Shown piece after piece: positions 6,140 to 19,705 of a stretch of DNA of 64,000 nucleotides (positions are counted from its first letter, which is position 1; each line of letters begins with the position of its first letter). The notes beneath the pieces are model-generated. The model did no database searches, was not told the origin of the DNA, and saw only the letters and a list, made by a program, of their open reading frames with translations. The stretch comes from Eledone cirrhosa. Its lineage: Eukaryota. Location: assembly GCA_964016885.1 (NCBI GenBank), contig OZ024746.1, forward strand, positions 78,988,001 through 79,052,000, read 5' to 3'. Made by a program: the position numbers and the translations under genes.

Positions 6140-6200
6140 TTTCACTTACCAGTGGTTTCTTGAAAGCAAACAAAATTTACTTTCAGTCATCAGAATGAAA
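6140..6200 (-). ncRNA. Type I hammerhead ribozyme (left arm of palindrome)
   Basis: Minus strand: TTTCATT CTGATGA C-TGAAAGTAAA-TTTTG-TTTGCTTTCA-A GAAA CCACTGG TA AGTGAAA. Confidence 0.75.
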
Positions 6201-6309
6201 AAATCCTCGTGTATTTATTGACAGTGGATTTTAAACAAAAATATAATCTCACTTTCATATAGATTATATTTTTGTTTAAAATCTACTCTCAATAAATACA
6301 CCAGAATTT

Positions 6310-6370
6310 TTTCATTCTGATGACTGAAAGCAAATTTTGTTTGCTTTCAAGAAACCACTGGTAAATGAAA
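6310..6370 (+). ncRNA. Type I hammerhead ribozyme (right arm of palindrome)
   Basis: Stem I TTTCATT/AATGAAA; core CTGATGA 6317-6323; 10-bp stem II with a C.A mismatch at its base; GAAA 6351-6354; stem III ACCA-C-TGGT; GUA cleavage site after 6363. Confidence 0.8.
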
Positions 6371-8164
6371 TAATTATCTTATGTTGTTTATTACATAACT
6401 ATATATATATATATATATATATATAAATATTACACACACATAGATTACACGCACATAGTCACATACAAGAAGAATAACAAGAACATATGTTCCTAAATAG
6501 AAATGTAAGCAATATAAAACTTTTATATCGATGTCTGTCTCTCTCTCTATCTCTCTGTCTATGTGTCTGTCTGTCTGTCTGTCCAATGCTGTGTCTGCGT
6601 TCTTGCTTTATCTTCTGTATCTTTCTGACTCTCCTTCATTCAGAGACAGTCTTTCTTTCTTTCTTTCTTTTCCCCTCTCTCTACCCGTATATATATATAC
6701 ATACACACACATATATATATATATATATATATATATATATATATATATATATATATATATATATATATATATATATATATATATATATACATATATATAC
6801 ATATATATATATACATACATATATATATATATATATATATATATATATATATATATACATATTTATATATATATATATATATATACATATAAATACCTAT
6901 ATATACATACATACATATATATATATATATATATATACATATATATACATATATATACATATATATATATATACATATATATATACATACATATACATAC
7001 ATACATATATATATATATATATATATATATATATATATATATATATATATATATATACACACACACACACACAGACACACACACACACACTCATATATAT
7101 ATATAAATGTTTGTAAGGTGTTTAATTAGAACGTTGTACCTTCCTCTCCAAGCGAAACTTGAAAACTTGAAAAATGCCGATGAGAGCTGGGCCGAAGGAA
7201 AATGCTTTCATTTTTTTGCGGTCATTTTCGCCGTATTGACCACACAACCTACTTCGTCATAGATACTTGACCGACGAAGACTTACATGTTCTTTTCCATC
7301 AAATTGGAGACGACGGGAAGATTTCGCGACGAACTCCTCATATTTACTAGCAAGGGTTCTTCCATAATATAGGTTTATTACTATTTTTGTTTTGTATGCG
7401 TGTTTGGGTGACGATAAATATATAAAATATGGAGATATAAGAATGTTTAGAATAGATATTTCAATAAAAATATGTACACATGGTAGGGTTGAAAAAATAG
7501 TATATGATTTTTACGATAGAGAACAATCCATTGGCGGTGGAGTGGCAGGATTGTTAGAGAGTCGAACGGAATCATTTTGTACTATCTGATCCAGTTCCAT
7601 CTTCTCTGATGTTAAGACCGAGATATGAGTTGCAACCGCCAAATCTGACGACTAGGCTGCTTTCATTCATTTCTTTCACACTAGACGTTTGCGCATTTAT
7701 ATAAGCGTTTAAGTTACACGAAGGTGTGTGTCTATATATATATATATATATATATATATATATATATATATATATATATATATATATATATGTGTGTGTG
7801 TGTGTGTGTGTGTGTGTATATATGATGTGGAAAGAGATAGAAGGCTAAATAATGCAAAATGGACTGTAAGATGTAACAACAAAGTAAGTTACCTGGTAAT
7901 CTTTGTTTTGATCTTTCTTGTTGCTGTTCTTTCTTCCTTCTTTACACACACACACACACACACACACACACACACACACACACACACACACACACACACA
8001 CACACACACACACACACACACACACACACACACACACACACACACGCGCGCACGCACGCACGCACGCACACACACACACACACACACACACACACACACA
8101 CACACACACACACACACACACACACACACACACACACACACACACACACACACACATATAAGTT

Positions 8165-8370
8165 ATTCCGGGTTGAATCGGAGGTAACCACAGTAAGTAA
8201 CGTACTCAATACATAGCAGAGTATAAAAGTTATAATATAGAAGAGCTTCTACAGGAGGACTAGAATTGTTTCATAAGGAAAGACATAAATACTACCATTT
8301 ACTTGGACAGCCAGCTTCCTGATGATTTCTCACGAATGAAACAGTTCTAGTCCTGTAGAAGTTCTTCTAT
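8165..8370. mobile_element. PLE-like terminal-repeat fragment with a partial inverted duplication
   Basis: 8236-8274 is an inverted copy of 8336-8371. The 8165-8270 segment recurs at 26822-26869 and 27900-27997. Ends in (TA)n. Confidence 0.65.
8313..8363 (+). ncRNA. Type I hammerhead ribozyme
   Basis: Stem I AGCTTC/GAAGTT; CTGATGA 8319-8325; short stem II TTC-TCAC-GAA with T.T at its base; GAAA 8338-8341; stem III ACAG-TTCTAGTC-CTGT; GUA site after 8357. Confidence 0.75.
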
Positions 8371-9384
8371 ATATATATATATATATATATATATATATAT
8401 ATATATATATATATATATATATATTTATATATATATATATATATATAAACGTTAGTTTAGAAGAAAAAAATAGTGCTACACATCCACTAATAAAATGGCT
8501 ACTATTGAGTGTATCTCTATTTTATTTATATTATTGATATATTCCTCTGGCGTAGATCACCTTTCATGCATTGACATTAATCGAGAATGCTCCCTGTGGC
8601 AGCCATAGTTCAAATGCATGTCATGTGTTTCTTTACGGCCTTCTTTCTCGCTAAAAGTGATGGTGATTTCACACCACAAAACGTATAAATATATTTTACT
8701 GCTGCATTCTTTATATATGCATGAAGTTACGCCCTTCAAATGGATAGATCCTCAATATCTTTCGCATTGGAAGTTGCGGGATTCTCTCCGCTTCCTTATC
8801 ATTACTCTCTCCGTATTTAAAGGTTACATTACCCCTAGTTATTATCTTTCATGTGTTTTCAACGATTACCATTAACAAAGCAATCTGCAAGGTCTAAATC
8901 CTTTCTTCAAATGACTCTCTGGGGCGTTTTACACGTCGTAACCCAGCTATAAAACTCCTGCAATATATATTCTTTCTCATTTCTATTCCTCTGCCGCACA
9001 TATGTAAATATACGTATATCCACACACATATATATATATATATATATATACATATATATATACACATATATATATATTTACACACATACATACACACACA
9101 CACGCTCAGATGTATACATATAAGCAGGCACATATATATATATATATGTGTGTGTGTGTGTGTGTGAGTGTGCGTATCTATGTATATATAAAGATGCATT
9201 TGTGTGTGTATATATATATATATATATGTATATGAAAATATTTATGCGTACATATGACTCTCTCTCTCTCTCTCTCTCTATCTCTCTCTCTCTCTCTCTC
9301 TCTCTCTCTCTCTCTCTCTCTCTCTCTATATATATATATATATATATATATATATATATATATATATATATATATATATATATA

Positions 9385-9670
9385 CACGTGGTCCAGTGGT
9401 AAGGGTGTTGGACTTACGATCATAATATCGTGGGCTCGATTCCTGGGTTGCGTGTTGTGTTCTTGAGCAAGACACTTTATTTTACGTTGCTCCAGTATAC
9501 TCAGCTGAAAATGAGTACCAGCAATAGCTGGAGATTTAACCCTGCAATGAACTGGCGTCCTGTCCAGGGGGGAGTCTTGTACTCTCAGTCGCTTCACGCC
9601 ATGAAACCGGGATAAGCACCGGCCAAATGAGCCTTCTGGCTTAAGACAGACTTTAGACTTTTTAGACTTA
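9385..9670 (+). mobile_element. tRNA-derived CORE-type SINE (family B)
   Basis: A-box TGGTCCAGTGG, B-box-like GGCTCGATTCC, CORE-like TGTGTTCTTGAGCAAGACACTTTA and an AGACTTT-repeat tail; other copies at 18790, 35610 and 38062. Confidence 0.8.
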
Positions 9671-9696
9671 GATATATATATATATATATATATATA

Positions 9697-9806
9697 TAAA
9701 GAGTCAGGACTCCGATGACTGAGCTCCGGTCGTTTTGACACCTAGATAGATTTAGCTGTCTAAACGGCTGGAGCTCAGCCGTCGGGGCCCTGACTCTTTT
9801 CCTATA
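9697..9806. mobile_element. Foldback hammerhead-half element (subfamily 2)
   Basis: Imperfect palindrome AAAGAGTCAGGACTCCGATG...CCGTCGGGGCCCTGACTCTTTTCC between (TA)n tracts; same family as 3038-3236. Confidence 0.7.
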
Positions 9807-18109: not shown

Positions 18110-18789
18110 CATCCTTACGGGGTCGATAAAATAAAGTACTAGCAACATACTGGGTAATTGCTGGCCTTGTGCCTAACGTAGAAACAATTATATTATTTAA
18201 TTATGTTTATATACGGAACAAAAGCACTGCCATCGTTTCAAGGCCCAAATTTGATCAGAAAATATTACTCCAGAAAACAAGACGCATCAAAATAGTGACT
18301 TACTTCAGGCGCTAATACGAGTTTATACATAAACACACACACACACGCCCCCCCGCATTCCCCCCCCCATACACACACACATACACACATACACACACAC
18401 ACACACACACACATATATATATATATATATATATATATATATATATATATATATATATATATATATATACTGGATGTTAATCCGCTCCCAGAACGGAGTT
18501 CGAAAGAGTCTCTTTCCTGTGAGGGATGCGCTCGTGTATGCATGTCAAAGTCTCGGCTACTTTACCCTTATATATATTAACTATTTAGTGAGAGATTGAA
18601 TGTCAGTACCAACGGTGGTACCCATCACTTTATTCACAGCTTTCAAGATTAATGTGAGCAAGGAAAGGAAATATGGTTGGCAATGCAGTGGTCCCCAACG
18701 AAAAGCCAGACGGTGGGGGAAGAACACAAGGATTTACTTCAATATTTCCTGATACAACTTGGCACCTGTGATGTTGCAACCGATTTCTA

Positions 18790-18916
18790 CACCTGAGTAA
18801 ATTTGGAGCAGCGTGAGATAAAGTGTCTTGTTCAAGAACACAACACGCATTCCGATCTGGGAATCGAACTCACAACTTCACGATTGCAAGCCCGACACTC
18901 AAAGCACTAAGCCATG
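18790..18916 (-). mobile_element. SINE family B, 5' part
   Basis: Reverse complement of the tRNA head and CORE-like segment of 9385-9520. Confidence 0.7.
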
Positions 18917-18921
18917 TAATA

Positions 18922-19105
18922 TAATTGTTTCTACTTTAGGCACAAGGCCAGCAATTACCCAGTGCGTTACTGGTACTTTATTTTATCGACCCCCGTAAGG
19001 ATGAAAGGCAAAGTCAACCTCGGCGGGATTTGAACTCAGATCGTAAAGAGGACGTAACTATGCTGGAATATTATGGCGTCCGACCCTCTACGATACTGCC
19101 ATCCA
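18922..19105 (-). mobile_element. SINE family A
   Basis: Near-identical to 17389-17572. Confidence 0.9.
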
Positions 19106-19163
19106 ATGTAATGTAATGTAATGTAGGTAATGCATTTATGATGGCACATATATTCATATATAT

Positions 19164-19348
19164 ATAACACAGGTGTGGTAAGATGCCAGGTGGACCATAA
19201 CGCACCAGAGTACTCAACACTTATGGTGGTAGAGTGGGTAATAGGATAAGAGTCAGGACCCCAGCGGCTGAGCTCCGCCGTTTCGACTTCGGATCTAGCT
19301 GTTGAAACGGCCGGAGCTCAGCCGTCGGGGTCCTGACTCTTTTCCTAT
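19164..19348 (-). mobile_element. Foldback hammerhead-half element (subfamily 2)
   Basis: Family tail in reverse orientation plus palindrome 19241-19348; ends in (TA)n. Confidence 0.75.
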
Positions 19349-19386
19349 ATATATTATATATATATATATTATATATATATATATAA

Positions 19387-19705
19387 TGTAGGAGGTGAGT
19401 TTTATTGTAGTACAATAAAGCAATGCAGATATCGGATTAGAAGCCCTCTACAGTTTGTAGGACTGGAGTATATATAATATATAAGAACAAAAGATGGTTA
19501 AAGGGAGTTCCATGTATTTTATTATGCGCATTTCAAAAACAAATATCATCATGCAATAACATTTGTGTTTCATCAGATAAAATATGAGGACATGATATGA
19601 AGGTTAAAAACACTTGTGGATAGTGCAGTTTTAAATCAACTGTAGAGTGCTTCTATCCGATATCTGCATTGCTTTATTGTACTACAGTAAAACTCACCTC
19701 CTACA
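19387..19705. mobile_element. MITE-like element with ~68-bp inverted ends enclosing a hammerhead
   Basis: 19387-19455 is the reverse complement of 19638-19705; the arm shares TAGAGTGCTTC and AAAACTCA motifs with 11746-11776. Confidence 0.8.
19515..19584 (-). ncRNA. Type I hammerhead ribozyme (palindromic stem III)
   Basis: Minus strand: TATTTTAT CTGATGA AACACAAATGTTATT-GCAT-GATGATATTTGTTTTT GAAA TGCGCA TA ATAAAATA. Stem III ATGCGCAT is a perfect palindrome. Confidence 0.85.

What the first reader, a model, noticed from the sequence alone, without database searches (positions are those of the whole stretch)
6140..19584. Seven hammerhead folds from about four sequence families within 14 kb
Seen: cores with all three stems at 6140(-), 6310(+), 8313(+), 11610(+), 16688(-), 17278(-, weak stem I) and 19515(-). 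Most lie in short non-coding islands at or between (TA)n tracts, and no PLE RT or GIY-YIG ORF is recognisable in the window. Inference: a diverse population of non-autonomous ribozyme-carrying retroposons colonises TA microsatellites. If this density is typical, the genome-wide ribozyme count is very large. I cannot tell from sequence alone whether these families are already catalogued.
Basis: partly seen in the sequence, partly recalled or inferred. Interest (0 to 1): 0.75.

Follow-up and report, generated by a model that had tools for sequence, protein, structure and literature searches.

The report
Penelope retroelement hammerhead ends in TA-repeats
The seven hammerhead-ribozyme motifs are real and are the cut-short tail ends of six insertions of protein-coding Penelope-like jumping genes that sit in TA repeats, a known kind of element that this genome likely carries in one to three hundred thousand copies, including a neighbouring subfamily that multiplied with a core mismatch predicted to cripple self-cutting.

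Summary
All seven type I hammerhead folds are present at the stated places (5 strict, 6 medium, 7 loose; 0 of 300 local shuffles reach these counts). They are six insertions from six families: 6140 and 6310 are the inverted arms of one insertion. Every family is a dispersed repeat whose longer copies lie downstream of, or run into, a Penelope-like RT/endonuclease gene: Hydra-type for A, B1-B3, C; Neptune-type for E. Two fixed 3' ends, inverted arms and (TA)n at the 3' end (50 of 57 vs 14-21%) are textbook Penelope features. So these are truncated ends of autonomous elements, not non-autonomous retrozymes. Hydra elements with hammerheads in (TA)n, one from Octopus, are published. The scale was not found in my searches: 82,804 exact motif matches as a floor, about 1.4-3.4 x 10^5 estimated; the 14-kb cluster is about four times average. 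Cleavage is untested. The scan noted all this before on other DNA.

The parts
6044..6400 (.). Family A insertion between (TA)n tracts: tail plus inverted arm (6044-6249, - strand) joined to a 5'-truncated arm (6248-6400, + strand)
   Evidence: 14 of 29 family A loci hold an inverted core pair
6140..6200 (-). Type I hammerhead, family A, inverted arm; predicted cut after 6147
   Evidence: strict
6310..6370 (+). Type I hammerhead, family A; 11-bp stem II; predicted cut after 6363; the only one that is the minimum-energy fold
8159..8370 (.). Family C insertion: tail and short inverted arm (about 8159-8274, -) then truncated arm (8275-8370, +), ending in (TA)n
8313..8363 (+). Type I hammerhead, family C; 3-bp stem II; predicted cut after 8357
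   Evidence: strict; not the minimum-energy fold
9698..9805 (.).
   Evidence: sequence
11320..11512 (.).
11549..11819 (+). Family B3 3' end with tail, between (TA)n tracts; hammerhead 11608-11670, predicted cut after 11658
   Evidence: 94.5% over 271 nt to L279, where it runs into a Hydra-type ORF
12100..12335 (+).
16544..16976 (-). Family B1 3' end with tail; hammerhead 16688-16752, predicted cut after 16696
   Evidence: 95% over 442 nt to L081, which carries a Hydra-type ORF upstream
17197..17387 (-). Family E 3' end; minimal hammerhead 17280-17314 with palindromic stem III, predicted cut after 17284; this copy lacks one G of the 4-bp stem II seen in other copies
   Evidence: (loose only); 88.7% over 194 nt to L308 with Neptune-type ORF upstream
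19165..19345 (.).
19386..19705 (.). Family B2 insertion: arm with hammerhead 19515-19584 (-, predicted cut after 19523) and a 69-nt inverted arm (19638-19705, +), between microsatellites
   Evidence: (medium); 93% over 300 nt to L405, which holds an unbroken 821-codon frame

Best explanation
The seven motifs are hammerhead folds at the 3' ends of six 5'-truncated insertions of protein-coding Penelope-like retrotransposons, five families likely of the Hydra clade and one likely Neptune, which are predicted to insert by nicking (TA)n and copying their RNA from one of two fixed internal start sites. Shown: each family is a dispersed repeat; longer copies join the same end to an RT plus endonuclease gene; ends fall at two fixed places 65-100 nt apart and run into (TA)n; many copies have an inverted second arm. 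Inferred from the published anole Penelope biochemistry (PMC11167929): the element's protein nicks AT-rich DNA, starts reverse transcription inside the RNA at either of two sites (giving ends with and without the tail) and usually stops early, leaving 100-450-nt islands; the opposite strand is primed too, giving fold-backs. Inferred: new copies land in the TA tracts that flank old ones, which builds clusters like this one. Inferred: the hammerheads cut weakly, as dimers or with protein help, and cutting is not needed for each round of copying, because the hammerhead lies inside the copied stretch and a subfamily with a mismatched core pair amplified to over 800 copies.
For: Fold significance. 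Dispersed repeats at 80-99% identity, 1,040-2,559 first-look candidates each. ORF links on the same strand: A in L086 and L138; B1 in L081 and L082, 92.7% alike over 2,123 nt; B2 in 4 of 20 loci and L405; B3 end running into the ORF in 2 of 20 loci; C in 2 of 4 long inverted-pair loci, 92% alike over 2,647 nt; E with both endonuclease and core in 15 of 24 loci. Hydra motifs RxRW, SDKT, YRDD, CxCx5C in unbroken frames match PMC8557442 section 11. The L405 model (pLDDT 86) has telomerase RTs as 5 of its top 7 structural matches. Two ends per family for A, B1, B2, B3, C, D. Inverted core pairs in 55 of 130 loci of A, B1-B3, C and 0 of 34 of E. (TA)n within 200 nt downstream in 50 of 57. Perfect palindromic stem III in 37 of 59 sampled motifs, 10 different sequences, as expected for dimer-type hammerheads (PMC4209133). 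C3.A8 subfamily: 814 exact copies against 308 U3-A8 and 2 C3-G8; 7 of 8 long C3.A8 loci hold ORF pieces, 6 of them both RT and endonuclease.
Against: ORF links rest on a minority of loci, picked as best matches or long inverted pairs; 0 of 24 family C loci showed a linked ORF and most began at the same (TG)n tract, so short non-autonomous masters may exist for C and perhaps A. One E locus (L262) has a Hydra-type ORF upstream, with no shared sequence beyond 235 nt. Pfam gave no significant hit for any of these ORFs; clade assignment is by motif and by eye, with no tree against published elements. Six of seven motifs are not the minimum-energy fold. No cleavage or expression data. The structural matches have low TM-scores (0.2-0.33).
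Confidence: 0.9

Rival explanations
1. The islands are non-autonomous ribozyme retroposons (retrozyme-like or internally deleted Penelope derivatives) copied as short units by Penelope proteins.
For: No ORF in the window. Most family C copies start at one (TG)n tract about 470 nt upstream of the core. Family C motif counts are strand-skewed (5,852 against 3,667), which may hide a tandem array. Another family shows five direct copies about 420 nt apart in L166. A preprint derives animal retrozymes from Penelope ends.
Against: All six families have ORF-linked copies. The (TG)n tract of C is internal to the long element. 5' ends of A, B1, E vary from copy to copy. A direct second core occurs in only 4 of 164 loci. 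Ends lie 10-150 nt beyond the cut site, not at it.
Confidence: 0.08
2. The folds are chance matches in AT-rich, low-complexity DNA.
For: The very loose rule gave up to 7 hits in one of 60 whole-window shuffles; 17278 passes only the loose rule; several do not fold as hammerheads by energy.
Against: 0 of 300 regional shuffles reach the counts; each motif is conserved in a repeat family; 69,717 exact matches for the B pattern against 0 for its reversed control; the 17278 family has a full 4-bp stem II in 3,313 exact matches.
Confidence: 0.01
3. For family D only: the C3.A8 core is not dead but is switched on by A-to-I editing of A8, which would restore the 3-8 pair (cephalopod editing recalled, not checked here).
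For: C3.A8 is one edit from the standard C3-G8 pair, and the motif lies in long hairpins and inverted arms.
Against: Edited RNA copied back would give G8 copies; only 2 C3-G8 copies exist beside 814 C3.A8, no more than the 5 U3.G8 beside 308 U3-A8. This does not exclude editing of RNA that is cut and not copied.
Confidence: 0.03

Closest known systems
Hydra clade of C-terminal EN+ Penelope-like elements, including Hydra-1_Obim of Octopus bimaculoides (Craig et al. 2021, PMC8557442; seen: section 11, passages, supplement part 2 and search hits)
   Same: RWK-type and DKT motifs, CxCx5C linker, C-terminal endonuclease, type I hammerhead near the 3' end, (TA)n targets, inverted 5'-truncated arms and a one-sided tail.
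   Different: The paper lists one cephalopod Hydra family with a different hammerhead; here at least six families (proteins 37-61% identical) with tens of thousands of copies. Tails are 65-100 nt, not 30-40. 3' UTRs are 1.0-1.7 kb and in A and C hold long internal TA/TG tracts, so elements exceed the '<3 kb' described. U3-A8 and C3.A8 cores are not in its hammerhead table.
Neptune-type Penelope-like elements with minimal hammerheads (Cervera and de la Pena 2014, PMC4209133; seen: text parts 1-2 of 4; Neptune linker from PMC8557442 passages)
   Same: Family E: 4-bp stem I, extra base after A9, G10.1-C11.1 pair, palindromic minimal stem III; endonuclease with a Cx4CxxC linker read by eye.
   Different: Clade not tested by tree; no inverted pairs seen (0 of 34).
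U3-A8 hammerheads of Schistosoma mansoni Cercyon elements (PMC4209133) and natural U3-A8 variants (PMC3088659, passages)
   Same: Families D' (13 of 13 parsed, of 25 loci) and part of D carry U3-A8.
   Different: Here stems II and III are long, and the larger D subfamily carries the uncompensated C3.A8.
Metazoan non-LTR retrozymes (Cervera and de la Pena 2020, PMC7229834, passages; bioRxiv 10.64898/2026.07.22.740005, parts 1-2 of 5)
   Same: Type I hammerheads in short, non-coding-looking genomic islands at high copy number.
   Different: Retrozymes are direct tandem units of 170-400 nt; these are truncated, often inverted ends of coding elements.
Poseidon element of Anolis carolinensis (Frangieh et al. 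2024, PMC11167929; seen: text parts 1-2 of 4)
   Same: Two reverse-transcription start sites that define the tail, cutting of AT-rich DNA on both strands, hammerhead not needed for insertion in vitro.
   Different: Different clade; the in vitro result is matched here only by genomic inference.

Membership tests
Type I hammerhead ribozyme | CUGANGA and GAAA core, NUH site, three stems, stem I open | tested here: met
   5 strict, 6 medium, 7 loose; 0 of 300 shuffles
Type I hammerhead ribozyme | Hammerhead is the favoured fold of the monomer | tested here: inconclusive
   1 of 7 full, 2 partial, 4 not; dimer-type motifs are expected to fail this
Type I hammerhead ribozyme | Self-cleavage | not testable with these tools
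   needs an in vitro assay
Penelope-like element (EN+) | Telomerase-like RT linked to the 3' repeat | tested here: met
   model of L405 matches telomerase RTs best
Penelope-like element (EN+) | GIY-YIG endonuclease C-terminal to RT | tested here: inconclusive
   YIG/YVG/YFG motifs by eye; Pfam GIY-YIG hit in only 1 of 74 aligned homologues and not in L405
Penelope-like element (EN+) | Inverted 5'-truncated arm and optional tail | tested here: met
   two ends in A, B1, B2, B3, C, D; inverted pairs in 55 of 130 loci; not seen for E
Penelope-like element (EN+) | Partial-tandem pseudo-LTR running into the ORF | tested here: met
   B3 in L279 and L280, D in L114
Hydra clade (A, B1-B3, C, D) | RWK-type motif and DKT in place of DKG | tested here: met
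   A and D, B2 and D, C; B1 and B3 only by 49-61% similarity to the B2 protein
Hydra clade (A, B1-B3, C, D) | CxCx5C linker, no CCHH | tested here: met
   CxCx5C in B2, C, D; last C changed in the one A copy read; absence of CCHH by eye
Hydra clade (A, B1-B3, C, D) | Insertion into (TA)n | tested here: met
Hydra clade (A, B1-B3, C, D) | Generally shorter than 3 kb (typical, not defining) | tested here: not met
   L405: 2.46-kb frame plus about 1.3 kb to the end; L409 about 3.7 kb
Hydra clade (A, B1-B3, C, D) | Placement in the Hydra clade by RT phylogeny | not tested
   published reference proteins were not available as session sequences
Neptune clade (E) | CX2-5CxxC linker and CCHH endonuclease | tested here: inconclusive
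   read by eye in L133 and L321; no tree; Nematis not excluded
Non-LTR retrozyme | Direct tandem units of 170-400 nt, each with a hammerhead | tested here: not met
   none in the window; direct second core in 4 of 164 loci
Non-LTR retrozyme | No coding partner in cis | tested here: not met
   ORF-linked copies for all six families
Non-LTR retrozyme | Abundant circular RNA | not testable with these tools
   needs RNA data

The most novel reading that the evidence does not exclude
This genome holds one of the largest hammerhead populations of any genome (likely above the axolotl's 126,247 in a tenth of the DNA), built by many Hydra-clade families, and family D is a natural knock-out: successive source elements with a cleavage-dead C3.A8 core out-copied their U3-A8 sisters, showing in vivo that Penelope retrotransposition does not need ribozyme cutting.
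Probability: 0.4. Interest if true: 0.6.

Novelty: new member of a known kind. Interest (0 to 1): 0.4.

Why it matters
The role of hammerheads in Penelope-like elements is stated as unclear in PMC8557442, and the one in vitro study found cutting dispensable. Sister subfamilies that differ at the 3-8 core pair, with similar age and hundreds of copies each, make the question testable with two short RNAs. The count also means that descriptor-based ribozyme censuses and TE libraries for cephalopods probably miss or mislabel a large class of short repeats, and that this class may feed the TA/TG microsatellite load, since A and C carry long TA/TG tracts inside the element (inference).

Tried and rejected
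Rfam scan of the window: the 150 listed of 441 matches were microsatellite matches to miRNA models and one viral UTR model, none a hammerhead; 291 were not shown, so it says nothing either way. The repeat finder was swamped by simple repeats. Pfam on the Penelope-type ORFs and PDB sequence searches gave nothing significant. A single-sequence fold failed (pLDDT 34); the alignment-based fold worked. Sequencing runs: no RNA holder listed; no reads were laid. I first read family C as non-autonomous and dropped that. I first linked E to a Hydra-type ORF (L126/L262) and dropped that. A loose scan for the U3-A8 core in the random sample was mostly noise and had no shuffle control, so it is not in the density figures. 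The family E row of the end-position table is an artefact of an internal AT run; E ends about 90 nt after the cut site. Direction of change between C3.A8 and U3-A8 in family D stayed unresolved: outgroup families have U3, but one informative site and intermediate haplotypes also fit a restored pair. Editing-restoration was looked for and not seen. The paper on 3-8 pair exchanges (PMC1986816) was not held, so the C3.A8 prediction rests on PMC11167929, PMC3088659 and PMC3884650 passages about other single changes. One of 60 random regions did not exist, leaving 59.
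Full report
Observation. Local dinucleotide shuffles of 6-20 kb give 0.007, 0.04 and 0.20 folds on average, and 0 of 300 reach the observed counts. The weakest, 17278, is a damaged copy of a family with a 4-bp stem II. By energy, only 6310 folds as a complete hammerhead; 16688 and 19515 form stems I and II; the other four do not. That is expected for dimer-type motifs (PMC4209133) but means activity cannot be read from the fold.

Anatomy. Each motif belongs to a dispersed repeat. 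The 6140 and 6310 motifs are two arms of one insertion: TA tract, tail, inverted arm, truncated arm, TA tract. The 8313 and 19515 insertions have short inverted arms too. Across fetched loci, families A, B1, B2, B3, C and D end at two fixed places 65-100 nt apart, and 55 of 130 loci of A, B1-B3 and C hold an inverted pair of cores, while only 4 of 164 hold a direct second core. These loci were best matches, not a random draw. PMC8557442 describes the inverted truncated arm and one-sided tail, and PMC11167929 explains the tail as the stretch between two internal reverse-transcription start sites.

Coding partners. The window has no Penelope ORF, but longer copies elsewhere do. Family A lies downstream of an RT/endonuclease gene in L086 and of the same gene's end in L138. 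B1 does so in L081 and L082. B2 does so in 4 of 20 loci, and L405 holds an unbroken 821-codon frame with a 3' end 93% identical to the window copy. B3 runs directly into its ORF in 2 of 20 loci. C looked gene-less in 24 loci, but 2 of 4 long inverted-pair loci share an ORF, a TA/TG tract of several hundred bases and the C end; these belong to a sister subfamily, 84-92% like the window copy. These proteins carry RxRW, SDKT, YRDD and CxCx5C, the Hydra-clade marks of PMC8557442 section 11. The L405 model (pLDDT 86) matches telomerase RTs best, at low TM-scores. Pfam saw none of them. Family E differs: 15 of 24 loci hold both its core and an upstream endonuclease with a Neptune-type zinc linker, read by eye; those loci were fetched with a query that reached the end of that ORF.

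Target and scale. In 59 evenly spaced 10-kb stretches (589,800 nt) the scan finds 43 strict, 59 medium and 79 loose folds against about 0.1, 1 and 11 in 8 shuffles. The 59 medium folds fall in 20 clusters; 37 have a perfectly palindromic stem III; 50 of 57 have (TA)n within 200 nt downstream, against 14% of random places and 21% of places in the same stretches. Straight scaling gives 2.2, 2.9 and 3.4 x 10^5. The sample runs high: it holds 22 matches to the B pattern where the exact genome count of 69,717 predicts 13.7. Scaling by that ratio (my arithmetic) gives 1.4, 1.8 and 2.1 x 10^5. Exact patterns give a floor of 82,804: B 69,717, C 9,519, E 3,313, A 255 (controls 0; stem II pairing is not checked by these patterns for B). 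Published counts seen: axolotl 126,247, coral over 6,000, mussel about 5,000, Xenopus about 9,000. The 14-kb cluster is about four times the sampled mean, 1 of 59 stretches also held seven, and the whole window is average.

Four more ends of a related group lie in the same 14 kb (9698, 11320, 12100, 19165). Full copies have a long-stemmed hammerhead with U3-A8 in family D' (13 of 13 parsed, 12 of 25 not parsed), a published variant. Family D, also ORF-linked, is split: 814 exact copies with C3.A8, 308 with U3-A8, 2 with C3-G8 and 5 with U3.G8. The C3.A8 group has its own linked differences, at least two sub-lineages, and divergence like that of the U3-A8 group (4.4% and 4.3%; 57 of 99 copies aligned); 6 of 8 long C3.A8 loci hold both RT and endonuclease. 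The 3-8 pair is part of the active core and single changes abolish cutting in the anole element, so C3.A8 is predicted to cut poorly; this exact mismatch was not found tested in what I could read. Which state came first within D is unresolved.

Mechanism. Shown: structure, ends, targets, ORF links. Inferred: nicking of TA tracts on both strands, internal priming at two sites, early termination, and re-use of flanking TA tracts as new targets. Inferred at lower confidence: the hammerhead is weak and not needed for each copying round.

Prior knowledge. The host is likely an octopod (inferred: an Argonauta homologue, by-eye likeness to Hydra-1_Obim; the SINE types are recalled). Hydra-1_Obim is listed with a hammerhead and (TA)n preference. 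PMC13282606 (parts 1-2 of 3) reports 31 recently active Penelope-like families in Octopus vulgaris without mention of ribozymes in the parts read. Searches for hammerhead with octopus or cephalopod and with microsatellite showed no count for a cephalopod; the supplement of PMC7229834, that library, Repbase and Dfam were not seen and may hold these families. The scan's own notes report the same kind, the scale and the mismatched core on other pieces of this genome; I had reached these readings before those look-ups.

Verdict. Real, well explained, new families of a known kind; modest interest from the scale and from the testable C3.A8 subfamily.

Noticed in passing
window 11825-12070 (-): A repeat found in 23 loci carries the first half of a hammerhead core just before its TA-flanked end, with no second half in the copies read; it also shows inverted arms and a tail, so possibly a Penelope-type end without a full ribozyme.
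   Followed up: partly
L166:3124-4800: Five direct copies about 420 nt apart, each with a hammerhead with palindromic stem III, plus one inverted copy: a retrozyme-like array of another family.
   Followed up: no
G000, family C motif: Strand-skewed count (5,852 forward, 3,667 reverse) suggests a large one-way tandem array somewhere.
   Followed up: no
L086 (about 900-1000 nt upstream of the family A core): The 3' UTR of family A holds what looks by eye like a decayed B-type tail followed by TA/TG repeats, as if a new 3' end had been added behind an older one.
   Followed up: no
window 3040-3234, 27904-27996, 28971-29041, 35783-35922, 57055-57187: Further D-group and C tail remnants outside the finding, without full cores.
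   Followed up: partly
window 57782-60685 (+) and 3300-5320 (-): A 967-codon LINE-type RT frame with zf-RVT, and a broken LINE-type remnant.
   Followed up: partly
window 44099-52551: A 33-nt tandem repeat of 256 copies, 94% matches; also an 18-nt repeat of 91 copies at 12559-14195.
   Followed up: no
window 10972-11162, 16268-16405, 17383-17572, 18110-18191, 18921-19105: Five copies of a very common SINE-like repeat interleaved with the Penelope ends; SINE identity recalled, not tested.
   Followed up: no
window 17910-18109: A 200-base assembly gap inside the finding's span.
   Followed up: no
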